From: Candidatus Methanoperedens sp.
GTDB lineage: Archaea > Halobacteriota > Methanosarcinia > Methanosarcinales > Methanoperedenaceae
Assembly: GCA_041494705.1 (NCBI GenBank)
Contig: JBGQBI010000006.1
Span: 150,001-182,000 of the forward strand
Reading direction: 5' to 3'
DNA: 32,000 bases
This document shows positions 2,164-31,112 of the stretch, in pieces. Each line of letters starts with the position of its first letter. Within the stretch, counting starts at the first letter, position 1. The notes beneath the pieces are model-generated. The model saw only the letters and a list, made by a program, of their open reading frames with translations. It was not told the DNA's origin and did not search any database. Both the position numbers and the translations under genes were made by a program.

Positions 2164-3333
2164 ATGTTTGCCAAAGATAACAACCTGCAAACCGTAGGAA
2201 CAAGAGAAGAAAGAGGTAAAGCCATAGCTGAAATGGGAAATCAGATAGAAAGGATAGATGAACATTCGTATAAAGTGAAATCACAGACAAGCAACGTTAT
2301 TTATAATGTGAAAACTACTGAAATAGGCTGGAAATGTTCATGCCTTGACCACGTTACCAGAGGCTTAAAATGCAAGCATATTTGGGCAGTTGAGGTCTCT
2401 TTTGCGATAAGAAAAGAAGTTGAGGTCAGAAAGATAGAGCCTATCGTTACTATTTCGACTTGTATCTTCTGTGGTTCATCCAACCTTGAAAAAGACGGCA
2501 TCAGACATAACAAACATGGGGATATTCAAAAATACCATTGCATTGATTGTAATCGCTATTTCTCATTCAATATCGGCTTCGAGAAAATGAAACATAATCC
2601 GCAAGCAGTCACAACAGCCATGCAGTTGTATTTTTCAGGAGAATCGCTCAGGAATACGCAGAAATCGCTTAGAATACTCGGCGTTGAGGTTTCATATCAA
2701 ACTGTTAGCAATTGGATTGAAAAATACACATTATTGATGAAACAGTATGTGGATAAGCTGAAACCTAATGTTGGCGATACATGGCGAGCGGATGAGGTTT
2801 TCGTAAAATTCAGCGGTAATATGAAATATCTCTTTGCATTGATGGATGATGAAACAAGATACTGGATTGCTCAGGAAGTCGCTGATACAAAGTTTAAACA
2901 CGATGCACAAAGCTTATTCCATGAAGGTAAAGAACTCATGGGAAAAAGACCTAATGTCCTGATAACTGATGGACTAAGAGCCTATCACGATGCTTTTAAC
3001 AGGGAATTTTACCAAAATTCAAGCCCACGCTCAAAGCATATCAACGCTATAAAGCTGGATGGGGACATGAACAATAACAAAATGGAAAGGATTAATGGAG
3101 AGATAAGGGATAGGGAAAAGGTTATGAGAGGATTAAAAAAGAAAGATACGCCCATCCTCAAAGGCTATCAGATTTATCATAACTTCATAAGAACTCATGA
3201 AGGTCTTGACGGAAAGACACCCGCCGAAGCCTGCGGAATAGAGGTTATGGGTGAGAATAAATGGATTACACTAATACAGAACGCCAGCCACCCGACGAAT
3301 TTTGACAGCAAGTCTAATCCGACGAAGACTTGA
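2164..3333 (+). CDS. IS6-family DDE transposase with N-terminal SWIM-type and ribbon zinc fingers
   Basis: 389 aa. It has a CSCLDHVTRGLKCKHIW motif (CxC..CxH, SWIM-like) and CIFCGS...HCIDCNRYF. Candidate DDE residues lie in WRADEVFVKF, LITDGLRAYHDAF and NNKMERINGEIRDREK. The RTHEGLDGKTPAE tail is typical of retroviral-integrase-fold transposases. The stop lies inside the right inverted repeat. Confidence 0.85.
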   Translation: MFAKDNNLQTVGTREERGKAIAEMGNQIERIDEHSYKVKSQTSNVIYNVKTTEIGWKCSCLDHVTRGLKCKHIWAVEVSFAIRKEVEVRKIEPIVTISTCIFCGSSNLEKDGIRHNKHGDIQKYHCIDCNRYFSFNIGFEKMKHNPQAVTTAMQLYFSGESLRNTQKSLRILGVEVSYQTVSNWIEKYTLLMKQYVDKLKPNVGDTWRADEVFVKFSGNMKYLFALMDDETRYWIAQEVADTKFKHDAQSLFHEGKELMGKRPNVLITDGLRAYHDAFNREFYQNSSPRSKHINAIKLDGDMNNNKMERINGEIRDREKVMRGLKKKDTPILKGYQIYHNFIRTHEGLDGKTPAEACGIEVMGENKWITLIQNASHPTNFDSKSNPTKT

Positions 3334-3340
3334 CAGAACC
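3319..3340 (+). repeat. right terminal inverted repeat (IRR) of the IS6-family element
   Basis: CCGACGAAGACTTGACAGAACC is the exact reverse complement of 1007-1028. Confidence 0.8.
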
Positions 3341-3348
3341 ACCCATCG
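3341..3348. repeat. 8-bp target-site duplication, right copy (ACCCATCG)
   Basis: Identical to 999-1006 and immediately outside the right inverted repeat. Confidence 0.75.
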
Positions 3349-3419
3349 GAATTCTTATATAGAACGACAAACATTGATTTGCCCAAATAGCAGCCCGGTA
3401 ATTGTATAATTATATTAAA

Positions 3420-3484: not shown

Positions 3485-5122
3485 ATGGCAGCACAACTTG
3501 GCGGACAACCAATCATAATCTTAAGGGAAGGCACTGAGAGAACACGCGGGCAGGAAGCAAGGAACAATAACATCATGGCGGCAAAAGCAGTTGCAGATGC
3601 CGTGAGAACCACACTTGGACCAAAAGGAATGGATAAGATGCTCGTGGGCGGCGGGAACATTACAATCACAAACGACGGCGTCACAATCCTTAAAGAAATG
3701 GAAATAGAGCACCCTGCAGCAAAAATGCTCGTAGAGGTAGCAAAAACGCAGGATGATGAAGTCGGGGATGGAACCACCACAGCCGCAGTTCTTACAGGTG
3801 AATTGCTTTCACAGGCGCAGGTATTATTGGACCAGGACCTCCACCCCACAATAATAGTGTCAGGCTACAGGATGGCCGCTGACAAGGCAATTGAACTCCT
3901 GAAGGAAATTACCCACACAATCACAGAGGATGATGAGGAGCATCTGTTGAAAATAGCAACCACCGCAATGACAGGAAAGGGCGCCGAGGGTTCAAAAGAA
4001 AAACTTGCAAAAATCGCAGTTGCCGCTATCAAATCCATTGTTGATGAGGAAGACGGGAAAAAAATAGTTGATATTGATAATATTAAAATCGAGAAAAAAG
4101 TAGGAAAAAGCGTTGATGATTGCGAATTTATCAAAGGCATTGTTCTTGATAAAGATAAAGTCCACAACAACATGCCAAACAAGGTAACAGATGCGAAGAT
4201 TGCGCTCATCACGCGGCCTATTGAATTCAGCAAGATGGAACTTGAAGCCGAGATTAACATTTCAACACCGGGTGAGCTTTCACAATATCTTGACCAGGAA
4301 GAACAGATTGTCCATGATATCGTGAACCGGATAGCAGAGAGCGGCGCCAATGTCGTGTTGTGTCAATTGGGCATAGAAGACATCGCGCAGCATTACCTTG
4401 CAAAAGCGAATATTCTTGCAGTACAACGTGTTGCACAAAAGGATATCGAGAAAGTTGCAAGGGCAATAGGTGCAAATCTCATTACAAGCCTTGACGATTT
4501 TGACGCCTCGGACTTGGGAAGCGCGGGATTTGTTGAATTGAAGGGGCACGGCGAGGATAAGATGCTTTATATTACTGAATGCAGCAATCCCAGGGCAGTA
4601 TCGATCATTATACACGGCGGCACAGAGCATGTACTGGAAAGCACCGAACGGGCTCTTGAAGATGCGTTAAGGGTTGTGGGCGTTGCGGTTGAAGATGGGA
4701 AACTGGTTGCAGGCGCAGGCTCGCCTGAAATCGAGCTTGCCTTGCGGTTAAAGGACTACGCTTCGACATTGAAAGGCAGGGAGCAGCTTTCTGTGACAAA
4801 GTTTGCAGAGGCGCTTGAAATCATCCCGAAAACCCTTGCGGAAAATGCGGGGCTTGACCCTATAGATATGCTTGTGGAACTCCGCAGCCAGCATGAGAAG
4901 GGGAACAAGGATGCAGGGCTTAACGTATTCACAGGAAAAGCTGAAAATATGTGGAAGAACGGGGTTATTGAACCTCTTCGCGTCAAGACGCAGGCTATAA
5001 ACTCGGCAACCGAAACCGCTATCATGATTTTGAGAATAGATGACGTGCTTGCAGCTTCAGGCGGCGGCGCCGAACAGGGCGGAGCTTGCGGCATGGGAGG
5101 CATGCCTCCGGGCATGATGTGA
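3485..5122 (+). CDS. ths: thermosome subunit (group II chaperonin)
   Basis: 545 aa. TCP-1/thermosome signatures are [20 protein letters not shown] and [12 protein letters not shown], plus the C-terminal GGMPPGMM tail. Confidence 0.97.
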
Positions 5123-6435: not shown

Positions 6436-8922
6436 TCATCCCGCAGCCTCAGGTTCGGAAGCTGACGCCGCCCTCGGCGGATTCTCCTCAATCACTGGTC
6501 TCTCCTTCCTGTAATCCTTAAGCCTCCTGACTATTATCTCTGTTAAAAACAATCCAAGCGCCGCAAGCAGGAAAGGTTCTTTTTCACTCTTTGGCTCCTC
6601 CACTGTCCTGACTGCTTTTTCTTTTATATCAAGGAGAAGCAGACCTTCGACATCCTTCTCATCATACACGTGCCCGCCGTTTGATTCTATAACAGAAATA
6701 AGCTGGTCATTGAATCCAACATCCCTGTATTCAAGCGGGTAATTCACTGCTATCCCGTATCCTGAAAGGTCGTGGAATCCTTCTTTCTCAAGATTTATGG
6801 GTGATTCGTATGTCGTCGGTCCTGTTCTGGAAAGGTCAAGTGCCGCGCCGTCAAGTTTTACCTGCGGAAGCGTGTTAGAAGTAACCACTACCCTGCCGGG
6901 CGTTCCGCCCCAAATGTCCTCTGCCTGTACAACCACGCCTTCCTTCGGGCGCGGGTCGCCTATCGCCCAGTTTATCATTCCCGATATGAGGCGCGAGTTC
7001 TCGCCGCTGTAAACCTGGGGAGCCCACATTGTTAAGCCACCCCCGTTATCTGTTGTGAACGAAACAACCCTCCCGAGCCCGAAGCCCCAGCTCGTGAGAA
7101 TCGGTTTTCCGCGCGTGGTGGCTACGAGTCGGTCTCCTCCAAGTTTGGGTGTGACGTCATTATATCCTGTAACCGAGGCTGTGAGGTTGATATATTTTGT
7201 GATGAAATGGTTTGTGTCCACTGCTGCGAGGGGGTATTCGTAACTGACTTCGGGGGTGGGTGTGGGGGTTGGTGTAACCGAGGGACCCTGTCCGATTAAA
7301 GTGCTGGCTCGTTCATCCGGATTCAGGACTATGGCGGGACCATCCGAAGCAAGCGCAAGTCCATTATACAGTGGGTTTGCTTCTTTGGTTGCTTCAAAAG
7401 ACAACCTTACCTGGATAAAATGGATTTTAACATCATTATTTTTTAAATCCACAACGGTCTTTTTTATCTGGTCAAAACCCTCAGGCGGCATCATGCCATC
7501 AGATAATACTATTATTTCTTTTGTCCCACTGACAGTATTTAACAAGTCTCCGGCAGCGTGAAGTCCTTTATCAAGATCTGTAGGGTTGTCGCCGCCTTTC
7601 GGGCCAATATCCCTTATGAATTTTTCAAGAACCGCTTTATTGGCTTCGTTACCCATTGGCAATATATCCGTTTTTGCAGTCACGCCGCCAAAAGCAACTA
7701 CGCCCATGCGACTATCCTGTGCAATATTCTGGACCAAATTCAGGGCGTTCGCATCCTCAAGACCTATAAAAGAAAGCCCTGTTGTAGGGTCTTCCCCCAT
7801 AGTGCTCCCTGATGCATCGATCACAACAACAAGGTTCCTCCCGCCCTGGTACTCAGCCGCCCTGGAAATTATCGGCAGCATTGCTTCTACAGGCGAATTG
7901 TTGTAATTTCCCTTATCATAAGCAGAATCCCCACCCACCACAACAAGCCCGCCGCCCCCGCCCACGTATGTCCGTAAAATATCAGCGCTCAACTGCGCCG
8001 CGCCTTTGTTATCTATTATCACAGCCTTGTAAGCTGCAAGGTCGTCAGGAACGGAGTTCATGGTCGTGACATCATACAGGCTTGTAGAAATTTTATAAAG
8101 CGGCGAGCCTGTATCAGCGGTCACAGCGAGAACCTTAGGCTTCGGAACAACGAACACGGATTTATAGAACACGTTGTTGAGATTGAACCAGTCCTCTCCG
8201 CTCGGGGTTATGGTGGCGGTTACCTTGTGCGTGCCAAGTGAATTGAAGGTATAAGAAACCGGAATGACCCGGGTGCGCTCTGTTTGTGTGATTGTATCGC
8301 TTTTCACAGGCGTCCCGTCTATCTGGACATCAAGCCTGTAAGAGGTCTCATTCCCCGCCTGCCTCACCACGATATTGAATACGTTCTCATTCCCGATTAT
8401 AAGGTTCTTGGCGCTTTCTATCTCGACGCTTGCATCGTTATGTATGGGTGCCTGTTTCACAGCAAACACGCGCGTGCCGGTTTTGGAAACAAAGGAGATG
8501 GCATCGAACAGGTCTTTACCGTAGTTATTATTCCCGTCGCTCACAAGCACTATGTTGTTATTTCCCTCCGCATCCTGGATAACCTCATCCCCGATTGGCG
8601 ATTTTATACCTGCAAACTGCCTCGCTGTGGTCGGGGTTTTTGATTTTATAGCTTCGAATATCTTTCCGCCCGTATCCCTATTGAATAAATCCATGCTCAT
8701 CGTCTGGTCGGATACGATAGTCACCTTCGGCGCCTCATCCCGGACAGAACTTGCGCTCATGGTGAAAGGTTCAGCCAGGGCAATTATAAGAAGGCTCAGG
8801 ATTATCAAGCGAGAGAGTATGATGAGCTTCGGAATACCTTTCCTTATCGCATACCAGCCGACAAGAATCAGGGGGCTAATTAACAGGATAATAAAGGGAT
8901 TCGCGAACTGCGGGATATCCAT
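6436..8922 (-). CDS. large membrane-anchored vWA-domain protein (Bat-like), last gene of the MoxR operon
   Basis: 828 aa. N-terminal double-TM segment, MIDAS motif VVVIDASGSTMG, a PTPTPTP linker and a C-terminal TM helix. Its start shares 1 nt with the upstream stop (TAATG). Confidence 0.85.
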   Translation of the reverse strand: MDIPQFANPFIILLISPLILVGWYAIRKGIPKLIILSRLIILSLLIIALAEPFTMSASSVRDEAPKVTIVSDQTMSMDLFNRDTGGKIFEAIKSKTPTTARQFAGIKSPIGDEVIQDAEGNNNIVLVSDGNNNYGKDLFDAISFVSKTGTRVFAVKQAPIHNDASVEIESAKNLIIGNENVFNIVVRQAGNETSYRLDVQIDGTPVKSDTITQTERTRVIPVSYTFNSLGTHKVTATITPSGEDWFNLNNVFYKSVFVVPKPKVLAVTADTGSPLYKISTSLYDVTTMNSVPDDLAAYKAVIIDNKGAAQLSADILRTYVGGGGGLVVVGGDSAYDKGNYNNSPVEAMLPIISRAAEYQGGRNLVVVIDASGSTMGEDPTTGLSFIGLEDANALNLVQNIAQDSRMGVVAFGGVTAKTDILPMGNEANKAVLEKFIRDIGPKGGDNPTDLDKGLHAAGDLLNTVSGTKEIIVLSDGMMPPEGFDQIKKTVVDLKNNDVKIHFIQVRLSFEATKEANPLYNGLALASDGPAIVLNPDERASTLIGQGPSVTPTPTPTPEVSYEYPLAAVDTNHFITKYINLTASVTGYNDVTPKLGGDRLVATTRGKPILTSWGFGLGRVVSFTTDNGGGLTMWAPQVYSGENSRLISGMINWAIGDPRPKEGVVVQAEDIWGGTPGRVVVTSNTLPQVKLDGAALDLSRTGPTTYESPINLEKEGFHDLSGYGIAVNYPLEYRDVGFNDQLISVIESNGGHVYDEKDVEGLLLLDIKEKAVRTVEEPKSEKEPFLLAALGLFLTEIIVRRLKDYRKERPVIEENPPRAASASEPEAAG

Positions 8923-10793
8923 TATAACTCACCCCTCCAGCGCAGGTAAACAAGTTCAAGCGCAACAAAGAACATCCCCGCCATTATTAGATAAATATCA
9001 AGATATTTGGGTTTCCGGATAGTCTGGACATTATACGATATTTCCTTCGAAGTTGAAAGATTCAGAGTCCCGGCTGCAAGCCCGCCTCCCGCAAGGTTTG
9101 ATTCCTTTTCATCAAACAGGTTCACGGCTATATCCTTATCCGGCAGTTCATAAATTCCCACTTCATCAAGCAGTAAAAGGTCTGTTGTTACAGTATCTGC
9201 AGGGGTCTTTATTGTCTGCGTTGCAGGCAGCTTGATAAACTGTCCTGTTTTTGCATTATATTCGCTTACATCCGCGCTTCCGCTTATCCATTCAAGCATC
9301 TGCTTAAAGAAGAGCGGATAGCCCGGATTTGAGTGGAAATCATTCCACACATTTTCATTCAGGGGGTCATAGATATTATCGCCCCTGGGGTCAGCCAGTC
9401 CTGAGTAAATCACCATTCCCTTCCCGGATTTCCAGTAAGCCAGCATAACGGATTTATCCCCCCCTTCAACCAGTGATACTGCTCCTCTTTTCAACTGTGC
9501 CTTGAAATGTTTCTTGACTTCCGTCTTTTCAATGTCGATGCCGCTCGTTATGGTATTTGGGTAGGCAACATTTAAGGAGGTACTGTTTGAGAGGTCGCCC
9601 GGTTCGACAGGAAGGATATCCATGCCCGACAATCCCGGTGATGCGATAATAACCGCAGTTCCCCCGTTATTGACATAATCAGAAAGTGTTTTTACCGCAT
9701 CCGCCTGAAGGGGAGCGCTCACAAAAACAATACGGCCTGACAGCGAAGGGATGCTTTTCGGGTCAGCCTTTGTTACCTTTGTAAAAGGAATAAGACCGAG
9801 GGCGACCACTGAAGGCGATTTAGCGTTATCGGTGATATACAGGACATCTCGTTTTATTGTTTGCGGAATAATCACATAGGCTGTATTATCCACCGAAAGC
9901 GCATCGTCAATGTTCAGGGAGATTTTCGTTTTTCCGGGTTCAAGGTTGCTGACCGCAATATATTCACTTGACTGCCCTTTGATGTTTCTGGTATCTGAAA
10001 GCACGTTCCTGCCGTCTGTTGTAACATCTATCTTTACATCCCGCGCATCGTTATTAAAATTTTTAATGACTATCTTATAATCGCCGTTCGATTCGAACCA
10101 GCCGTTCACTATCCCGACATTATCCGTTCTTCCGCTAATCGTTACAAATTCTACGTTGATACCGTTGGCTTCGGCAAGCGCCTTTGCAACCGAAGGGTCA
10201 TCACCAATCCAGCTCGTAAAATCAGAGAGCACCACTATCCTGCCCCCTTCGGGAAGCACCCTTCGTCCGAGTAGAATGGCGCTTGACAGGTCGGTACTCG
10301 TTGCTTTTGCCTTCAATTTTTTAAGTGCATCCGATGCGCTGCTTGAAGGTGCGTCTTTCATAACCATCACAGGCACGTTTTCAGCGAGAATCAGGGTGTT
10401 CTTTGCCGAAACGAACTTATTCGCTTCCACAACTGCCCTATCAAACTTCCCATCAGCCTGCATGCTGGCGGAAGCGTCAAGGATTATCACGGTTGAACCG
10501 CCACCAGCTTCTTCATTTGCTATGATATAAGGCGCAGCCACAGCAAGAGAGACTAAGATAAGCACGAGCAGTTGTATCAGGAAAAGCGGGTCCTTGAGGA
10601 ATTTCCTGAAAATATTTAGCCGCTTTTTCTTTTCAATATCAAAAAGGAACATGAGGGAAGGGATTTTTAATTTCTTCGGCCTTGGTCTTAAAAGATATAT
10701 GATTATAAGCGGGATGATAGAAAGCAGCGCGTAAAGCCCTACCTCATTGGCGAATTGCATCGGATTTGCATATAAAAAATCCAAGAGACTCAT
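8922..10793 (-). CDS. BatA-like vWA-domain membrane protein
   Basis: 623 aa. N-terminal double-TM aerotolerance-regulator-type segment (LLSIIPLIIIYLLRPRPKKLKIPSLMFL), MIDAS VIILDASASM and a C-terminal TM helix. Confidence 0.85.
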   Translation of the reverse strand: MSLLDFLYANPMQFANEVGLYALLSIIPLIIIYLLRPRPKKLKIPSLMFLFDIEKKKRLNIFRKFLKDPLFLIQLLVLILVSLAVAAPYIIANEEAGGGSTVIILDASASMQADGKFDRAVVEANKFVSAKNTLILAENVPVMVMKDAPSSSASDALKKLKAKATSTDLSSAILLGRRVLPEGGRIVVLSDFTSWIGDDPSVAKALAEANGINVEFVTISGRTDNVGIVNGWFESNGDYKIVIKNFNNDARDVKIDVTTDGRNVLSDTRNIKGQSSEYIAVSNLEPGKTKISLNIDDALSVDNTAYVIIPQTIKRDVLYITDNAKSPSVVALGLIPFTKVTKADPKSIPSLSGRIVFVSAPLQADAVKTLSDYVNNGGTAVIIASPGLSGMDILPVEPGDLSNSTSLNVAYPNTITSGIDIEKTEVKKHFKAQLKRGAVSLVEGGDKSVMLAYWKSGKGMVIYSGLADPRGDNIYDPLNENVWNDFHSNPGYPLFFKQMLEWISGSADVSEYNAKTGQFIKLPATQTIKTPADTVTTDLLLLDEVGIYELPDKDIAVNLFDEKESNLAGGGLAAGTLNLSTSKEISYNVQTIRKPKYLDIYLIMAGMFFVALELVYLRWRGEL

Positions 10794-10796
10794 TTT

Positions 10797-11666
10797 TTAC
10801 CTCTGTTTTATCTGCTTTACCTGTCTCTGGTTTACAACCTCGAATATGGAATCAAATACAGGTTTATCGGTTGTAACACTATGAAAATCCGCCCCTACCG
10901 TAATACATGTCTCTTTTATCTTTGCGATATGGTCGTTTAAGCGCTTCTGATATTCGTCGCGAAGCCGCGGGCTTGTATAGATATCTAATTTCCTGTCTGT
11001 CTCAAGGTCGATTAATTTTGCCTCGCCGCCAAGGTCAAGGTTTTTCTCAACAGGGTCAAGCACCTGGACCAATACAAGTTCATTATCGCCGAGCCTGAAT
11101 ATCGCATTTTTGATAGCATCGGTTTCAGTCATGAAATCAGAAATAATAATAACAAGCGACCTTGATTTTATAATGCTGGCGTATTTTTCCATGCAATAAT
11201 CAAATCGGGTTTTCCCCAAGAGCGCCGTGCTATTCAGGAGGTTAATTGTCTGGGAGAGATACTTCCTTCCTCTCTTTGGTTTTGTGATATTCATCTCTTC
11301 GCCGAAGGTGGATACTCCGAACTTCTCATTATCTTTGGTCACAAGATATGCAAAACCAAGCGCAAGCATAGCGGCATAATCGAATTTATTCCGGAAGTCC
11401 ATGCTCTTGCTGGTATCGAGAAGTATATGGGTCGTCAGGCTCTTTTCTTCTTCGAATTCCTTGACATAGAGTTTCTCTGTGCGCCCATACACTTTCCAGT
11501 CGATTATCTTAAAATCGTCTCCCTGCGTGTATTCGCGGTAGCTCACAGGCTCCATGCCCCTGCCTTTTAAAATCGAACGGCGGCTTCCGCTGTACGCGGT
11601 GGATACGCGTTTGCGTACCATGAAAGTGAAGCGGTCAAGTTCCTTGAAGAATGAGGTATCGATCAT
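10797..11666 (-). CDS. DUF58 family protein (vWA-like partner of MoxR ATPases)
   Basis: 289 aa. REYTQGDDFKIIDWKVYGRTEKLYVKEFEEE and ILLDTSKSM are the usual DUF58 signatures. It sits 3 nt upstream of the next gene. Confidence 0.88.
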   Translation of the reverse strand: MIDTSFFKELDRFTFMVRKRVSTAYSGSRRSILKGRGMEPVSYREYTQGDDFKIIDWKVYGRTEKLYVKEFEEEKSLTTHILLDTSKSMDFRNKFDYAAMLALGFAYLVTKDNEKFGVSTFGEEMNITKPKRGRKYLSQTINLLNSTALLGKTRFDYCMEKYASIIKSRSLVIIISDFMTETDAIKNAIFRLGDNELVLVQVLDPVEKNLDLGGEAKLIDLETDRKLDIYTSPRLRDEYQKRLNDHIAKIKETCITVGADFHSVTTDKPVFDSIFEVVNQRQVKQIKQR

Positions 11667-11866
11667 AAAGCGACACCTCGCTTTATGCGGTATCCACGTA
11701 AACCGATACCCCGGTTTACGTGGTGTTGGGGTATGCTTTGCATACCCCTCGTTTGATAAACCTTTCTTAAAGGTTTACGTATGCCTGTGGGCATACGTGT
11801 CTGTGTCCTCAAGGGGCGCAACCCTTGATACGTGTCTGCGATGTAAAGCGGCGCAACGGTTTTCAT
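11663..11866 (-). CDS. candidate 67-aa very basic bridging ORF between moxR and the DUF58 gene; coding status doubtful
   Basis: The ATG follows the moxR stop directly (TAAATG) and the stop overlaps the DUF58 start (ATGA), so it fills the gap exactly. The sequence is dominated by hairpin palindromes and is Arg/Lys rich. I recognise no homology. Confidence 0.25.
   Translation of the reverse strand: MKTVAPLYIADTYQGLRPLRTQTRMPTGIRKPLRKVYQTRGMQSIPQHHVNRGIGLRGYRIKRGVAL
11665..11828. repeat. array of six consecutive perfect hairpins (7-12 bp stems) inside the moxR-DUF58 spacer
   Basis: The six stems are: ATAAAGCG/CGCTTTAT (11665-11686); CCACGTAAACCG/CGGTTTACGTGG (11694-11723); GGGGTATGC/GCATACCCC (11728-11748); TAAACCTTT/AAAGGTTTA (11757-11777); ACGTATGCC/GGCATACGT (11777-11798); TCAAGGG/CCCTTGA (11809-11828). 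Confidence 0.8.
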
Positions 11867-12814
11867 TTATTTCACGTTTTTCAGGATATCCGAAATCACC
11901 TGGTCTGTTGTCATGCCCTTACGCTCCGACTCGAAGGTGAGGATAACACGGTGACGTAGAATGGGATATGCCATTGTATCAATATCTTCCGTACTCACAT
12001 AATTCCTGCCCCTCATGAGCGCCCTTGCCTTCGCCGCAAGGATAATACCGATGGAAGCTCGTGGCGAGGCCCCATATTCGATATGCTCGCTCTTAGCCCG
12101 CGTTGAAGTCACGATATTAATGGCTCTTTTCTTGATATCCTCTGCTATGGGAACATCCCTTGTGAGTTTCTGCAATTCAAGAACCTCGCCCTTTGAAACT
12201 ACCTGTTTTACCGATGGTGAGATATTTTTCGTATACCTGTTAACAATTTCGTTCTCATCCTCAACCGTGGGATAATCCATTAAAATCTTAAGCAAAAACC
12301 TGTCAAGCTGGGCTTCAGGCAACGGATAAGTGCCCTCCATTTCAATAGGATTCTGGGTAGCAAGGATAAAAAACGGCTTATCAAGGGGATATGTTTTATT
12401 GCCAATTGTTACCTGTTTTTCCTGCATTGCCTCAAGGAGCGCGCTCTGTGTCTTGGGCGACGCCCTGTTAATCTCATCTGCAAGCACGATGTTTGAAAAA
12501 ACAGGCCCGGGTTCAAAGCGGTACTGTTTCTTCCCGCCTATATCCTCTATGATGGTTGTGCCTGTGATGTCCGAAGGCATAAGGTCGGGCGTGCACTGTA
12601 TCCTGCTGAATTTCAGGTCAAGCGCTTTTGATATGGTGCTTATGGTAAGGGTTTTTGCAAGCCCCGGGTTACTCTCAACAAGCGCATGGCTGTTGCAGAG
12701 AATTGCTATCATTATATGTTCAATCGCTTCATGCTGCCCTACGATTACCTTCCCGATCTCATCAAGAAGTTCCTTGAAAACGCCTTTTGAGCTTTTGTAT
12801 GTATCATCACTCAT
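11867..12814 (-). CDS. moxR: MoxR-family AAA+ ATPase
   Basis: 315 aa. Walker A variant ESNPGLAKT, Walker B VLADEINRASPKTQSALLEAMQE, and the typical MoxR C-terminal region (ASPRASI). Confidence 0.93.
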   Translation of the reverse strand: MSDDTYKSSKGVFKELLDEIGKVIVGQHEAIEHIMIAILCNSHALVESNPGLAKTLTISTISKALDLKFSRIQCTPDLMPSDITGTTIIEDIGGKKQYRFEPGPVFSNIVLADEINRASPKTQSALLEAMQEKQVTIGNKTYPLDKPFFILATQNPIEMEGTYPLPEAQLDRFLLKILMDYPTVEDENEIVNRYTKNISPSVKQVVSKGEVLELQKLTRDVPIAEDIKKRAINIVTSTRAKSEHIEYGASPRASIGIILAAKARALMRGRNYVSTEDIDTMAYPILRHRVILTFESERKGMTTDQVISDILKNVK

Positions 12815-12826
12815 GTTTTACCTCTT

Positions 12827-13705
12827 TCAAATCTTACTAACGTTAACTGCATAATCCTCGATTAATTTCTTTTCGGTCTCAGTTTTTTGCATGAGGAGAC
12901 TGTAACCTCCATCAGAAACATTCGAGCCAAGAACATCAACGGGGTACATCGCGGATTTGATGAACTGGTTTTGCGCCTGGCTTGCTTCCTTTATAGAGAA
13001 ACCAGTTCCCGTGCCCTGGTAAATCGTGAGGTCGATATTCTTTCCTTCAATAGAAGCAATTTTGGGTTTTCCGTAGATGTCCCCTCCTCCGCTAGTCCCC
13101 ACCTTCCCAACATCTTCCGGGCGCCCCACGACCTGCATGGTTTCATTCGTAATCGCTCCGGTAGTACCGGTTATGGTGCTTGAGATATTGGTAATGACTT
13201 CCGGCGGTATGCTATATTTCCCTGGGTCTAATGAAACCACAGTAACCCCTGAAATAAATACTATCGTTATTAGTATTTTTAAGACCGTCTTGCCAGCAGA
13301 CAAAAGATGCGAAGATGAGACATTTGTGAGCGCGACAGAAACATTGTCTTTTAATGAATCAACTATTACATTTGTTTCATCCCTGTTATCATACGCTGTC
13401 CTGAGTCTCTCTTTTAATTCATGATACTTATTTTCTATTAACAGGTTGACATTGATTTTACTGTCTTTTTTATGCAGCAATAAGGCGCTTATTATCGCGA
13501 TAATGAAAGCCAGGACAGGTGGAACGAATTTGACTGGAATCGGTAAATAGAAAGAAGATTTATTCAGGAAATACTCAACCTGGAAGATTATAAAAATTGC
13601 ATAAAATATGCTAAAAACGGAGATTAAATCCAGGATAAAAAGAAACCTCATGCGTGTTAAAAACCCTGACCTGATTTTTGAAAGCTTGTCCAGGAATTCG
13701 TTCAT
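12827..13705 (-). CDS. hypothetical membrane protein, first gene of the MoxR operon
   Basis: 292 aa. There are two N-terminal TM helices and one central TM helix. It lies 12 bp upstream of moxR on the same strand. I recognise no family. Confidence 0.7.
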   Translation of the reverse strand: MNEFLDKLSKIRSGFLTRMRFLFILDLISVFSIFYAIFIIFQVEYFLNKSSFYLPIPVKFVPPVLAFIIAIISALLLHKKDSKINVNLLIENKYHELKERLRTAYDNRDETNVIVDSLKDNVSVALTNVSSSHLLSAGKTVLKILITIVFISGVTVVSLDPGKYSIPPEVITNISSTITGTTGAITNETMQVVGRPEDVGKVGTSGGGDIYGKPKIASIEGKNIDLTIYQGTGTGFSIKEASQAQNQFIKSAMYPVDVLGSNVSDGGYSLLMQKTETEKKLIEDYAVNVSKI

Positions 13706-19901: not shown

Positions 19902-19986
19902 TGCGGAGGATGGGATTCGAACCCATGAACTCCTGCGAGAACAGCCCCTAAAGCTGTCGCCTTTGGCCTAGCTGGGCGACCTCCGC
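19902..19986 (-). tRNA. tRNA-Leu (TAG)
   Basis: Class II cloverleaf on the minus strand: acceptor GCGGAGG/CCTCCGC, 3-bp D stem GCC/GGC, anticodon stem ACAGC/GCTGT with loop TTTAGGG, long variable arm, T arm ATGGG-TTCGAAT-CCCAT, discriminator A. Confidence 0.9.
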
Positions 19987-28354: not shown

Positions 28355-29638
28355 ATGAAGTTTAATATGACGGATGATAAACTCCTAATAACAGAACTTG
28401 TGCTTACCGCGCACCTGTATAACCAGTCGGATAAGCTCGGCGTTGACGACCTCCCCCAGAAAATACGAAAACATTACTGGGACGAAAAGGAAAAAACCGT
28501 GAAACGCCCCATCTATGTGACTGAAGGCGATGTAAAAACAATTTATGGCCTTGAGAATGTAAAAAACAGCACAAAAGCGCTTCCTTTCCTTGAATTCGAA
28601 GAGTTCGGGTCACAAATAAAACTCACTGTTTTCGACCTTGCGACAAAGTGGCTTGCAAAGCAGCCTGAGGCTGTTGAAAACATCAACAAGAACCCGGTAC
28701 TTGCCTCCTTTTTTGAAAACTATGATTCACTTCCCGTGAGCTTTGCAAAGGCGAAAGCGTCCAACATGCCAAAAGAGAGCGGCAGGGAATGGATACTATC
28801 CCTGGTTAAAAGCATAGAATCCGAAAAGGGCTCGGAGGAGATGCTAAAACTTGCCCATATCGTGGCCCCGGAAGATATAAAGCAGAATATTAAGGACCTC
28901 GTCCTCACAAAAGCACAGGAGGACGAGATAGAGAAAATGACAAAAGCCATCCAGTACCGCGATTACCTGAAGCGGATAGGACTTCGGGAAATAGGAAAAC
29001 TTTTGTTCGTCGGGCCTCCGGGAACAGGGAAAACCTCGGTTGCGCGCGCTCTTTCAGGAAGGCTTGGAATCCCGATAGTGGAAGTAAAACTCTCGCAGAT
29101 TGCTGACCAGTATCTTGGCGAGACGGCAAAGAACATCGACCGGGTTTTTGAACTTGCAAGACGCCTGAGCCCGTGCATACTTTTCATCGATGAATTCGAT
29201 TTCGTGGCAAAAGCCAGGGCTACGGATGAGCACGCCGCATTAAAAAGGGCTGTGAACACGCTTTTGAAGGCTATAGATGAGATAAGTCTGGTTGAGGATG
29301 GGGTGCTTCTTATCGGAGCAACGAACCATCCCGCAATACTTGACCATGCGGCATGGAGGCGGTTTGATGAGATAGTGGAATTCGCGCTCCCGGATAAGGA
29401 TATGAGGAAAAAGATACTTGATATCGTGCTCAGGGAAATAGAGGGAACGTTCAATACTGAAGAGATTGCGGAAAAGACAGAAGGATACTCGGGTTCCGAC
29501 CTGCGGTTAATCGTCCGGGAAGCTGTGCTTAATGGTCTTATAACCGAAAGAACAGTCCTTGGTCAGCCGGATTTACTGCGGGGAATTACAGAATTCAATA
29601 AAAGGATTCATTTGAAGGCACTGGATGAAAAAACATGA
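28355..29638 (+). CDS. classical-clade AAA+ ATPase with an uncharacterised ~200-aa N-terminal domain
   Basis: Walker A GPPGTGKT, Walker B ILFIDEFD, sensor-1 GATNHP, and an AWRRFD second-region-of-homology-like segment. The start is uncertain: ATG at 28355 or 28367, and the track ORF begins at 28337 with TTG. Confidence 0.85.
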   Translation: MKFNMTDDKLLITELVLTAHLYNQSDKLGVDDLPQKIRKHYWDEKEKTVKRPIYVTEGDVKTIYGLENVKNSTKALPFLEFEEFGSQIKLTVFDLATKWLAKQPEAVENINKNPVLASFFENYDSLPVSFAKAKASNMPKESGREWILSLVKSIESEKGSEEMLKLAHIVAPEDIKQNIKDLVLTKAQEDEIEKMTKAIQYRDYLKRIGLREIGKLLFVGPPGTGKTSVARALSGRLGIPIVEVKLSQIADQYLGETAKNIDRVFELARRLSPCILFIDEFDFVAKARATDEHAALKRAVNTLLKAIDEISLVEDGVLLIGATNHPAILDHAAWRRFDEIVEFALPDKDMRKKILDIVLREIEGTFNTEEIAEKTEGYSGSDLRLIVREAVLNGLITERTVLGQPDLLRGITEFNKRIHLKALDEKT

Positions 29639-30542: not shown

Positions 30543-31112
30543 ATGGAAACCACGCCTACAAATTTCAATGTAAAGGACATGAACGAGAACTCAAAAAACG
30601 TCAACGCCACTCTTAAGGTAATCGAAATAGGAGAGGTCAAGGACATACATTCAAAATTCGGAGATAAACGCGTCTGTGAAGTAAAAGTAGCCGATGCGAC
30701 CGGAAGTATATTATTATCTTTATGGGATGACCAGATCGGAAAAATAGCGGCCGGTGATACGATATCAATCCAGAACGGTTATATTTCAGTCGTCAGGAAT
30801 TCCATGAGATTGAACATAGGAAAATACGGGAAGATGCTGTTATCCGAAGAACCGCTCACCGAGGTCAATACCGAACTCAATATTTCGGATAAGCATGTGG
30901 AACAGCCCGAGCGGCCAAGGAGCAGCGGCGGATACGGCGGTGGAGGCGGCAGCGGGGGCGGAGGACGAGGCGGTGGAGGCGGGTACGGCAGCATGTACGG
31001 CAGCGGCACTGAGTTTAGCGGATTCAGGCGAAGCGGATACGGCGGTGGAGGCGGCAGCGGGGGCGGTAGAAAGGATTCGCGGGATAAAAAAGGCGGCAGA
31101 GGAAGAAGGTAA
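30543..31112 (+). CDS. ssb: single OB-fold ssDNA-binding protein with a Gly/Arg-rich (RGG-like) C-terminal tail
   Basis: The OB-fold segment is VNATLKVIEIGEVKDIHSKFGDKRVCEVKVADATGSILLSLWDDQ...ISIQNGYISVVRNSMRLNIGKYG. The tail is GYGGGGGSGGGGRGGGGGYG...GGRKDSRDKKGGRGRR. Confidence 0.8.
   Translation: METTPTNFNVKDMNENSKNVNATLKVIEIGEVKDIHSKFGDKRVCEVKVADATGSILLSLWDDQIGKIAAGDTISIQNGYISVVRNSMRLNIGKYGKMLLSEEPLTEVNTELNISDKHVEQPERPRSSGGYGGGGGSGGGGRGGGGGYGSMYGSGTEFSGFRRSGYGGGGGSGGGRKDSRDKKGGRGRR

What the first reader, a model, noticed from the sequence alone, without database searches (positions are those of the whole stretch)
11663..11869. 200-bp spacer inside the MoxR operon consists of six back-to-back perfect hairpins and is exactly spanned by a 67-codon basic ORF
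The other gene junctions in this operon are 12 nt or less, and three of the four are 3 nt or less. The moxR to DUF58 junction is 200 nt. Within 164 bp it contains six non-overlapping or barely overlapping perfect inverted repeats with 7-12 bp stems and 3-6 nt loops. Several arms are mutually interchangeable. ACGTAAACC (11696-11704) can pair with GGTTTACGT at either 11713-11721 or 11772-11780, and the GTATGC/GCATAC arms occur twice. ATACGTGTCTG is directly repeated (11793-11803 and 11828-11838). This supports alternative folds of the attenuator, thermometer or processing-site type. At the same time one frame is open across the whole spacer. It starts at TAAATG directly after the moxR stop and ends in an ATGA overlap with the DUF58 start. 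That looks like preserved translational coupling across an inserted structured element, or a real small Arg/Lys-rich protein. TAAAGCG flanks the block on both sides (11666-11672 and 11844-11850), which could be an insertion footprint. I know of no described element with this organisation.
Basis: seen in the sequence. Interest (0 to 1): 0.65.

Follow-up and report, generated by a model that had tools for sequence, protein, structure and literature searches.

The report
Coupling-preserving hairpin repeat in Methanoperedens operons
The 200-base hairpin block between moxR and DUF58 is one copy of a repeat family, apparently undescribed, scattered through the genomes of the methane-oxidising archaeon Methanoperedens; it lodges exactly at gene-to-gene junctions and carries its own start codon, open reading frame, ribosome-binding site and stop, probably so that translation of the downstream gene is not cut off.

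Summary
Window 11664-11828 holds six perfect hairpins, a cluster found nowhere else in the 32 kb, and it folds far better than shuffled sequence (z = -7). A 67-codon ORF runs from the ATG just after the moxR stop to a TGA overlapping the DUF58 ATG.

It is not a MoxR-specific regulator. The window is Candidatus Methanoperedens. In 48 related genomes this junction is 0-3 nt in about 14 and carries the hairpin element, 83-296 nt long, in 11. In all 11 the same frame stays open although single indels are not multiples of three.

The same modules occur at 20 or more unrelated junctions, including ribosomal-protein, RNase P, fpo and dapA operons. The usual layout is upstream stop/ATG, open frame, SD-like GAGGTG in the last hairpin loop, then TGA/ATG of the next gene. 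ATGA flanks both ends, also in copies that are not at a gene start. This points to site-specific insertion.

Best reading: a mobile, modular hairpin repeat whose bridging ORF keeps termination-reinitiation coupling intact. Its closest analogue is the mycobacterial MIRU. I found no description of it in archaea. Translation and mobility are inferred, not shown.

The parts
11867..12814 (-). moxR (AAA_3 ATPase), upstream gene; stop TAA at 11867-11869
   Evidence: Pfam AAA_3 E = 3.9e-62 plus AAA_lid_2; ORF list
11667..11866 (-). Inserted hairpin-module element (200 nt, counting one of the two flanking ATGA copies)
   Evidence: Empty orthologous sites read gtgaaaTAA|ATGatc. Filled sites of 83-296 nt occur in 11 genomes.
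11663..11866 (-). Bridging ORF: 67 codons, ATG directly after the moxR TAA, TGA overlapping the DUF58 ATG
   Evidence: The same frame is open in all 11 orthologous copies. No Pfam hit.
11863..11866 (-). Upstream ATGA flank (start codon of the bridging ORF)
   Evidence: Sequence. ATGA flanks both ends of copies in other contexts too.
11844..11862 (-). Degenerate head module (AAACCGTTGCGCCGCTTTA), an imperfect hairpin homologous to the terminal hairpin
   Evidence: Direct-repeat family D1. Encodes TVAPLY in this copy and is read in another frame in other copies.
11809..11828 (-). Hairpin module, 7-bp stem and 6-nt loop (TCAAGGG/CCCTTGA); part of a 35-nt diverged duplicate of the head module
   Evidence: (I14, D2)
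11777..11798 (-). Hairpin module, 9-bp stem and 4-nt loop, GTATG core (ACGTATGCC/GGCATACGT)
   Evidence: (I8)
11757..11777 (-). Hairpin module, 9-bp stem and 3-nt loop (TAAACCTTT/AAAGGTTTA)
   Evidence: (I6)
11728..11748 (-). Hairpin module, 9-bp stem and 3-nt loop, GTATG core (GGGGTATGC/GCATACCCC)
   Evidence: (I7)
11694..11723 (-). Hairpin module, 12-bp stem and 6-nt loop (CCACGTAAACCG/CGGTTTACGTGG)
   Evidence: (I2)
11664..11687 (-). Terminal hairpin, 10-bp stem and 4-nt loop. SD-like GAGGTG (plus-strand CACCTC, 11674-11679) spans the stem-loop boundary. The DUF58 ATG (11664-11666) lies in the 3' arm.
   Evidence: I4. Identical in 41 copies. GAGGT 5-8 nt upstream of ATG is the usual pattern for genes in this window.
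11663..11666 (-). Downstream ATGA flank: DUF58 start codon overlapping the bridging ORF's TGA
10797..11666 (-). DUF58 gene, downstream partner
   Evidence: Pfam DUF58 E = 3.8e-44
29635..29638 (+). An empty ATGA stop/start overlap (AAA ATPase to metallo-beta-lactamase-fold gene). Its orthologous junction in another Methanoperedens (L059) carries a ~215-nt hairpin element.

Best explanation
The block is one long, six-hairpin copy of a dispersed, modular repeat family found in Candidatus Methanoperedens genomes. The family behaves like a small non-autonomous mobile element that enters at the tetranucleotide ATGA. In compact archaeal genomes ATGA is most often a stop/start overlap between co-transcribed genes. 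After insertion, ATGA lies on both sides.

The upstream ATGA keeps the upstream gene's stop, or sits just after it, and supplies an ATG. The interior is open in that frame. The last hairpin carries an SD-like GAGGTG and ends in the downstream ATGA, which is at once the stop of the short ORF and the start of the next gene.

The inferred mechanism is as follows. A ribosome finishing moxR re-initiates at once on the bridging ORF. It translates through and melts the hairpins. It terminates on the DUF58 start codon and re-initiates there. Termination-reinitiation coupling would otherwise be lost across a 200-nt structured gap, and this arrangement keeps it.

The peptide itself is probably a by-product. 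The perfect hairpins probably serve the element's own propagation, or are kept perfect by intra-palindrome template switching. They are not a regulatory device of the MoxR operon.

Shown by sequence comparison: the block is an insertion, the family is dispersed, position and frame are constant, the stems are perfect and covary, and ATGA flanks the copies. Inferred: mobility, translation of the ORF, and coupling.
For: (1) Insertion. The junction is 0-3 nt in about 14 Methanoperedens genomes and in two outgroup loci. It is 83-296 nt with this element in 11 genomes.

(2) Frame kept despite turnover. All 11 spacer lengths, measured from the moxR stop to the DUF58 ATG, are 2 mod 3. Frame 1 has 0 stops in all 11, while the other frames carry up to 7. 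L008 differs from the window copy by indels of -1, -35, +2 and -8 nt, which sum to -42.

(3) Dispersal. Scanning metagenomes for the terminal hairpin gave 35 contigs at many unrelated junctions, including rpS9, rpL19e, rpL5, fpoC-like, dapA, map and epimerase genes. Annotated genomes show L32e|ORF|L19e and RNase P p30|ORF|Rpp14 with 4-nt overlaps on both sides. The window's own genome has a second copy, 350 nt with 10 hairpins.

(4) Position. In 33 of 44 copies the bridging ATG lies within -12 to +4 nt of the stop of an upstream ORF of 60 aa or more: 16 are ATGA overlaps and 12 are stop followed directly by ATG. 45 of 47 copies end in ATGA.

(5) ATGA flanks outside start codons. One copy lies inside a DDE transposase ORF. 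Another lies antisense in an intergenic region. An empty/filled pair exists at window 29635 versus L059.

(6) Structure is conserved, the peptide is not. There are 50 distinct perfect hairpins against 13 with one mismatch. In the GTATG-core family 95% of cells are paired, 5 of 9 pairs show double changes, and the covariation score is 0.41 against 0.16 for shuffles. Among 14 near-identical 80-nt copies, variation falls in loops and linkers at all codon positions. The same DNA module is read in two frames in different copies.

(7) GAGGT 5-8 nt upstream of ATG is the usual SD pattern in this window.

(8) In Haloferax, gaps of about 20 nt abolish termination-reinitiation (PMC10666635). This gives a selective reason for a bridging ORF.
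Against: There are no expression data: no RNA-seq, ribosome profiling or proteomics. Translation of the ORF and coupling are therefore inferred.

The copies are related by descent, so the constant open frame is partly inherited. The independent support is the set of compensating indels and the use of modules in different frames.

No transposase or other mobilising function was identified, and no strain-level insertion polymorphism was examined.

The patchy distribution on a single-gene NJ tree could reflect recombination or loss rather than repeated insertion. All moxR-DUF58 copies share a headless 5' end, which argues for one ancestral insertion at this site.

Two copies, L058 and L081, lack ATGA on the upstream side.

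Mismatches show no bias towards G.U on the sense strand (3 versus 4). Nothing therefore points specifically to selection at the RNA level.
Confidence: 0.72

Rival explanations
1. The repeat has been co-opted by the host as an RNA-level module. In this view the stable hairpin arrays between cistrons act like REP/BIME or intercistronic ERIC elements. They would protect the upstream mRNA segment from 3'-5' decay or create processing sites, and so set the expression ratio of neighbouring genes. Alternatively they would lower downstream translation by hiding the SD and start codon in the last hairpin. This reading is compatible with a mobile origin.
For: Very stable predicted RNA structure (z = -6.96). 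The downstream start codon lies in the stem of the last hairpin and the SD lies at its loop. The number of hairpins at the same junction varies widely between species, from 2 to 7 or more. Copies sit in highly expressed operons.
Against: The element is absent from the same junction in about 14 congeners, with no sign of compensation. There is no bias towards G.U wobble on the sense strand. Some copies are antisense or lie inside a transposase gene. No Rfam family matches and there is no terminator-like tail.
Confidence: 0.15
2. The ORF encodes a real small basic protein of 28-117 aa, made of repeated peptide modules from MKNFRKVLSK to RIKRGVAL. The hairpins would then be incidental to a repetitive coding sequence.
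For: The frame is always open. A start codon and stop codon are always present. N- and C-terminal peptide modules recur. Some pipelines call these ORFs as hypothetical proteins.
Against: The same DNA modules are translated in different frames in different copies, for example TVAPLYFADTY versus KPLRRFTSQTRM, and RIKRGVA versus HKARCRF. Substitutions among near-identical copies fall at all codon positions in loops and linkers, while stems stay paired. Length varies four-fold at one orthologous site. There is no Pfam hit, and only 21 singleton relatives were found in 5.8 billion proteins, all from Methanoperedens or unnamed archaea. The source genome's annotation did not call the ORF.
Confidence: 0.07
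3. A locus-specific riboregulator of the MoxR operon (attenuator, thermometer or alternative-fold switch).
For: Arms that could pair with alternative partners. Location inside an operon.
Against: The element is not conserved at this junction across the genus, and other genomes have unrelated insertions there. Identical modules occur at unrelated operons. The alternative pairings follow from paralogous modules that share cores. The predicted minimum-energy and centroid folds both use the six local hairpins.
Confidence: 0.02
4. Not mobile. In this view the family spread only by recombination or gene conversion between existing copies and by local duplication of hairpin units through slippage or template switching. 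The ATGA flanks would be a consequence of selection for start/stop overlap rather than of an insertion mechanism.
For: Module number changes rapidly at a single orthologous site. L025 shows dapA joined to DUF58 across a repeat copy, either by recombination or by misassembly. No transposase was found.
Against: Recombination cannot seed new junctions that had no copy. ATGA flanks also occur where no start/stop overlap is needed: inside a transposase ORF and in antisense intergenic orientation. Clean empty/filled pairs exist at two junctions.
Confidence: 0.04

Closest known systems
MIRU (mycobacterial interspersed repetitive units; Supply et al. 1997, as described in PMC12548453 and PMC3184786)
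   Same: Both are short repeats scattered in intercistronic regions of operons. Both are oriented with the genes and contain a small ORF whose ends overlap the stop and start codons of the flanking genes (-4 nt spacing). Both have tetranucleotide direct repeats at filled sites and show empty/filled polymorphism between species. Both are interpreted as inserting at start codons with minimal effect on expression.
   Different: MIRUs are bacterial, occur as head-to-tail direct (VNTR-type) repeats of 46-101 bp, and are G+C rich. This family is archaeal. It is built from about eight different perfect hairpin modules, not from tandem direct repeats: Tandem Repeats Finder reports nothing here. It carries an SD inside its terminal hairpin. 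No sequence relationship is expected, and none was tested.
REP/BIME and other hairpin repeats (ERIC/IRU, Correia elements) of bacteria
   Same: Clusters of small palindromic units between co-transcribed genes; stable RNA hairpins; multicopy and lineage-specific.
   Different: REPs are imperfect palindromes of a single consensus, lie outside ORFs, usually follow stop codons, and are not spanned by a coupled ORF. They are linked to RAYT transposases, which could not be examined here. No start codon, SD or stop architecture is reported for them (my own knowledge).
RPE (Rickettsia palindromic elements) and other repeats fused in frame to ORFs
   Same: Palindromic repeats that remain translatable, so that insertion is tolerated.
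   Different: RPEs insert inside protein-coding genes and add a peptide segment. Here the element forms its own cistron between genes. Only rare copies run into a gene (L057/L084, and the upstream gene in L059).
Neisseria REP2
   Same: [quoted passage not shown]
   Different: REP2 also carries a promoter and acts as a 5' region. It is not a bridging cistron between coupled genes.
IS200/IS605-derived palindrome-associated elements (PATEs)
   Same: Hairpin-rich, no classical long terminal inverted repeats, and an association with a specific tetranucleotide at the insertion point (my own knowledge, used as a lead only).
   Different: No Y1 transposase or partner IS was found or could be searched for. 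This is a mechanistic hypothesis, not a membership claim.
Borg tandem repeats in Methanoperedens extrachromosomal elements (PMC9879509)
   Same: Same host lineage; rapidly evolving repeats whose lengths respect reading frames (abstract).
   Different: Borg repeats are perfect tandem direct repeats and are reported as virtually absent from host chromosomes. The present elements are chromosomal arrays of inverted repeats. No match was found in viral contigs.

Membership tests
MIRU-like intercistronic coupling repeat (functional class) | Located between co-directional genes of an operon, in the same orientation as the genes | tested here: met
   The window copy lies between moxR and DUF58. 33 of 44 copies abut the stop of an upstream ORF of 60 aa or more. 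Ribosomal-protein and RNase P operons also carry copies. Exceptions: L060 and L081 are antisense.
MIRU-like intercistronic coupling repeat (functional class) | Contains a small ORF whose start and stop overlap or abut the flanking genes' stop and start codons | tested here: met
   The window copy has TAA-ATG and ATGA. 45 of 47 copies end in ATGA, and 16 begin with an ATGA overlap.
MIRU-like intercistronic coupling repeat (functional class) | Short direct repeat at both ends of filled sites, and empty sites in relatives | tested here: met
   ATGA lies on both sides. Empty sites exist at moxR-DUF58 and at window 29635 versus L059.
MIRU proper (Mycobacterium) | Head-to-tail tandem direct repeats of a 46-101 bp unit; mycobacterial consensus sequence | tested here: not met
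   Tandem Repeats Finder finds no array in the block. The units are different hairpins. The host is an archaeon. Similarity to MIRU consensus sequences was not tested.
MITE | Terminal inverted repeats | tested here: inconclusive
   The head module and the hairpins resemble each other in inverted orientation (20 nt, 80%, I1). However, the canonical 80-nt form has no clear terminal inverted repeats, only internal hairpins.
MITE | Target-site duplication, multicopy, no transposase gene, under ~500 bp | tested here: met
   4-nt ATGA flanks; 20 or more junctions; lengths of 80-350 nt; no transposase-like ORF inside.
MITE | An autonomous partner IS with matching ends | not testable with these tools
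   No whole-genome search remained available. The one adjacent transposase (L057, DDE_Tnp_1) shares no inverted repeat with the element and appears to be a target, not a partner.
REP/BIME | A single conserved imperfect palindrome of ~35 nt, extragenic and untranslated, associated with a RAYT | tested here: not met
   There are about eight different, mostly perfect hairpin types. The element is spanned by an ORF. RAYT association was not testable.
RPE-type in-frame palindromic element | Inserted inside protein-coding genes as an in-frame segment | tested here: not met
   Nearly all copies form a separate cistron between genes. The copy inside a transposase ORF truncates it.
Known structured RNA family (riboswitch, attenuator, thermometer) | Match to a curated family, or conservation at the orthologous site | tested here: not met
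   No Rfam match at the gathering threshold or at E <= 1. The element is absent from the orthologous junction in about 14 genomes.
IS200/IS605-type hairpin element (PATE) | Mobilised by a Y1 (HUH) transposase that recognises sub-terminal hairpins and inserts next to a specific tetranucleotide | not testable with these tools
   Only the association with the tetranucleotide ATGA and the richness in hairpins are observed. No transposase search was possible.

The most novel reading that the evidence does not exclude
The family may be a new kind of archaeal mobile element. Its target would be the ATGA stop/start overlap itself, and its 'cargo' would be a translation-coupling adaptor: ATG, an open frame, an SD, and TGA/ATG. 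It would be moved as single-stranded hairpin DNA by a transposase not yet identified, of HUH/Y1 type or something unknown. It would grow by adding hairpin modules that are kept perfectly paired by intra-palindrome template switching. A further step would be that the host uses the variable number of hairpins to tune protein ratios within operons, including ribosomal-protein operons.
Probability: 0.25. Interest if true: 0.8.

Novelty: new variant of a known kind. Interest (0 to 1): 0.62.

Why it matters
The finding bears on four questions.

First, it would be the first archaeal counterpart of the mycobacterial MIRU strategy, in which a repeat survives inside operons by carrying a bridging cistron. 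This would show that selfish DNA has adapted to translational coupling independently in both prokaryotic domains.

Second, it offers a natural experiment on archaeal termination-reinitiation and on how ribosomes unwind RNA. The same gene pair occurs in close relatives with 0, 2, 3, 6 or 7 or more perfect hairpins between stop and start.

Third, there are practical consequences. The elements break or mis-join Methanoperedens assemblies. They are called inconsistently as hypothetical proteins. Like MIRU-VNTR, they could serve as strain markers for an environmentally important methane oxidiser.

Fourth, the many different yet perfect palindromes raise a mechanistic question: is the pairing kept by selection, or by self-templated repair?

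Tried and rejected
- Exact-protein look-up of the 67-aa ORF found nothing on record.
- Rfam gave no family for the block, either at gathering thresholds over the whole window or at E <= 1 over the block. Only two tRNAs were found elsewhere.
- The bacterial promoter and terminator scan found nothing in the block, and it is of little relevance to an archaeon.
- Tandem Repeats Finder found no array in the block.
- A search for other copies in the window and in the +/-4 kb flanks of 48 related loci found none beyond the junction itself, apart from L025. Within this window the element looks unique, and only the metagenome scan showed that it is dispersed.
- A viral-contig scan for the terminal hairpin gave 0 hits.
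- I tested whether stem mismatches favour G.U on the sense strand, which would be a signature of RNA-level selection. There is no bias (3 versus 4), and the numbers are small.
- I looked for inverted repeats linking the element to the neighbouring DDE transposase in L057 and found none.
- A single-gene NJ tree intended to separate one insertion from many was not decisive.
- Literature searches for Methanoperedens combined with palindromic, MITE or hairpin terms, and for archaeal MITEs, found no description of this family.
- I rejected TAAAGCG as a target duplication (D1: it is an arm of homologous hairpins).
- I rejected an assembly artefact. A different MAG carries a 137-nt stretch 99% identical to the window copy, and dozens of independent assemblies carry related copies.
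Full report
**1. The observation**

The operon lies on the minus strand. It comprises a DUF7502 gene (12827-13705), moxR (11867-12814), DUF58 (10797-11666), a BatA/VWA gene (8922-10793) and a VWA/GATase1-like gene (6436-8922). The gaps between neighbouring genes are 12, 200, 3 and -1 nt.

The 200-nt gap contains six perfect hairpins, at 11664-11687, 11694-11723, 11728-11748, 11757-11777, 11777-11798 and 11809-11828. A scan of the whole window for perfect stems of 7 bp or more finds no comparable cluster anywhere else. The minus-strand RNA folds at -88.6 kcal/mol, z = -6.96 against dinucleotide shuffles, and both the minimum-energy and centroid folds use the six local hairpins.

A 67-codon ORF (11663-11866, minus strand) begins at the ATG that directly follows the moxR TAA. 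It ends with a TGA overlapping the DUF58 ATG. The one caveat is that a plus-strand frame is also open across the block, so openness in this copy alone proves little.

**2. Source organism and the same junction in relatives**

The DUF58 protein maps to a Candidatus Methanoperedens MAG, GCA_041480985.1. A scan of one genome per species returned 48 related loci, almost all from Methanoperedens.

I measured the distance from the moxR stop to the DUF58 start in each locus.
- It is 0-3 nt in about 14 genomes and in two distant outgroup loci. The sequence there is gtgaaaTAA|ATGatc or similar.
- It is 83, 83, 119, 143, 149, 158, 176, 194, 200, 209 or 296 nt in 11 genomes that carry the same kind of hairpin block.
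- Other genomes carry a different, MITE-like repeat or whole extra genes at this point.

The block is therefore an insertion into a junction that was ancestrally tight. It is not a conserved part of the operon.

**3. The frame is kept**

All 11 spacer lengths are 2 mod 3. The frame that starts at the ATG after the moxR stop and ends at the TGA overlapping the DUF58 ATG has no stop in any of the 11. The other five frames carry up to 7 stops.

This is not because the modules are multiples of three. L008 differs from the window copy by indels of -1, -35, +2 and -8 nt, which sum to -42. The peptide changes accordingly: the same DNA is read as TVAPLYFADTY in most copies and as (K)TLRRFNSQTRM in L008. 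What is conserved is an uninterrupted frame from stop to start, not an amino-acid sequence.

**4. A dispersed family**

A very close relative (L025) has a second copy between the S17e and dapA genes.

A metagenome scan for the terminal hairpin, CATAAAGYGAGGTRTCGCTTTATG, found 35 contigs, 11 of them from a single metagenome. They lie at many unrelated junctions, upstream of rpS9, rpL19e, rpL5, an fpoC-like gene, dapA, methionine aminopeptidase, an epimerase and others.

The commonest form is 80 nt with three hairpins: ATGAAAAACTTTAGGAAAGTTTTATCAAAAGAAGGGTATGCTTCGCATACCCTATACCGCATAAAGCGAGGTGTCGCTTT|ATGA.

A protein search with the 67-aa ORF found only 21 singleton 'hypothetical proteins'. All are from Methanoperedens or unnamed archaea, and all are built from the same peptide modules. 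Their genomic contexts include L32e|ORF|L19e and RNase P p30|ORF|Rpp14, with 4-nt overlaps on both sides. They also include a second copy in the window's own genome: 350 nt, 10 hairpins and a 117-codon ORF, between an EamA-family gene and map.

Across copies:
- 45 of 47 end in ATGA.
- In 33 of 44 the bridging ATG lies within -12 to +4 nt of the stop of a long upstream ORF. Of these, 16 are ATGA overlaps and 12 are a stop followed directly by ATG.

No copy was found in viral contigs.

**5. Insertion site**

ATGA flanks both ends of copies. In the window these are 11863-11866 and 11663-11666 on the minus strand.

ATGA flanks also occur where no start codon is involved. One copy inside the 3' part of a DDE transposase ORF is bounded by ATGA...ATGA and truncates that ORF. 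An antisense intergenic copy is bounded by TCAT...TCAT on the gene strand.

The window also contains an empty ATGA overlap at 29635 (AAA ATPase to metallo-beta-lactamase-fold gene). Its orthologue in L059 carries a ~215-nt element.

These facts suggest insertion at ATGA, either with duplication of the tetranucleotide or with regeneration of it. Copies that disrupt genes would then be removed by selection. I did not demonstrate mobility and found no mobilising enzyme.

**6. The hairpins**

There are about eight module types. Across all copies I found 50 distinct perfect hairpins and 13 with a single mismatch.

The GTATG-core family has 29 distinct variants. 95% of cells are paired, 5 of 9 pairs show changes on both sides, and the covariation score is 0.41 against 0.16 in shuffles (0 of 500 shuffles reach it). 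These variants are paralogous modules, so the number of independent events is smaller than the number of cells.

Mismatches show no preference for G.U on the sense strand (3 versus 4). I therefore cannot say whether pairing is maintained at the RNA level or the DNA level. Conversion of quasi-palindromes to perfect palindromes by template switching is known in bacteria (my own knowledge). It could produce the same pattern without selection.

Among 14 near-identical 80-nt copies, variation falls in loops and linkers at all codon positions. This again argues against a conserved peptide.

**7. Likely mode of action**

The terminal hairpin is identical in 41 copies. It places GAGGTG 7 nt before the downstream ATG, and the ATG itself lies in the 3' arm. 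GAGGT 5-8 nt upstream of ATG is the usual pattern for genes in this window.

In Haloferax volcanii and E. coli, termination-reinitiation coupling falls steeply with distance and is essentially lost at about 20-40 nt (PMC10666635). Stop/start overlaps of the NTGA type are the commonest spacing in prokaryotes (PMC12548453).

An 80-350 nt structured insert would therefore break coupling and hide the downstream start, unless it is itself translated. The bridging ORF solves this: re-initiation at the upstream ATGA or TAA-ATG, translation through the hairpins, then termination and re-initiation at the downstream ATGA. This step is inferred.

**8. Comparison with known elements**

The closest analogue is the mycobacterial MIRU. 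MIRUs are intercistronic repeats with small ORFs that overlap the flanking stop and start codons and with tetranucleotide direct repeats. They are described as inserting at start codons so that the MIRU ORF is coupled to the gene at -4 nt spacing (Supply et al. 1997, as cited there).

The present family differs in three ways. The host is an archaeon. The architecture is an array of different perfect hairpins, not tandem direct repeats. An SD is embedded in the terminal hairpin.

REP/BIME, RPE, Neisseria REP2 and IS200/IS605-derived hairpin elements each share some features but fail others; see the membership table.

Searches of the held literature found no description of this family in Methanoperedens or in other archaea. 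That library is incomplete, so 'undescribed' remains provisional.

**9. Verdict**

The locus-specific regulatory reading is rejected. The 'coupling preserved across an inserted structured element' reading is supported and extends to a whole family. I class it as a new variant of a known kind, a MIRU-like coupling-preserving repeat. Interest is moderate to high, because it is archaeal, structurally distinctive, and directly testable.

Noticed in passing
L019, L029, L030, L031, L034, L035, L038, L041, L050 (moxR-DUF58 junction, about 3680-4000 in most loci); also L064 and L076 next to hairpin copies: A second, unrelated MITE-like repeat occupies the same junction in nine other genomes. Its terminal inverted repeats are made of three 10-nt periods (CCGCAGATAAACGCAGATGAACGCAGAT ... 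ATCTGCGTTTATCTGCGTTCATCTGCGG). A sister type is built on CACGGAT/ATCCGTG. The repeats are often nested. The window contains none.
   Followed up: partly
L010, L014, L023, L027 (spacers of 847-1610 nt between moxR and DUF58): In these genomes whole extra ORFs of 143-410 aa, not identified, sit between moxR and DUF58 together with the 10-nt-period repeat. The junction therefore seems to be a general hotspot for insertions.
   Followed up: partly
L025:2843-4004: In a MAG whose DUF58 is 99% identical to the window's, DUF58 is preceded by dapA instead of moxR, with hairpin-element copies on both sides of dapA. This is either recombination between repeat copies or an assembly mis-join at the repeat.
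   Followed up: partly
L002 (contig end 26 nt upstream of DUF58); L087 (contig ends 33 nt after the element): Independent assemblies break inside or right next to the hairpin element. This fits a multicopy repeat that fragments Methanoperedens assemblies.
   Followed up: no
window:981-3349: An insertion sequence with low G+C (32-36%). It has a 389-aa DDE_Tnp_IS240-type transposase (2164-3333) bounded by perfect 22-nt inverted repeats (1007-1028 and 3319-3340) and an adjoining 27-nt direct repeat (981-1007 and 3323-3349).
   Followed up: partly
window:29635-29638: The ATGA overlap between an AAA ATPase gene and a metallo-beta-lactamase-fold gene is an empty site. The orthologous junction in metagenome contig L059 carries a ~215-nt hairpin element whose upstream part has decayed, so that the upstream gene now ends inside it.
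   Followed up: yes
window:30916-31066: A Gly-rich, imperfectly repeated coding stretch (GGCGGTGGAGGCGG-type units) in the C-terminal part of an SSB-like OB-fold protein gene (30543-31112).
   Followed up: no
L057:6768-6853 and L084 (orthologous): A hairpin-element copy inserted at an internal ATGA near the 3' end of a DDE_Tnp_1 transposase ORF. It replaces the last ~45 codons with element-encoded residues. This is an RPE-like outcome and shows that the element can also land inside genes.
   Followed up: yes
window:13847-13920 (+) and 19902-19986 (-): Two tRNA genes. The first lies just upstream of the operon's first gene, on the opposite strand.
   Followed up: no
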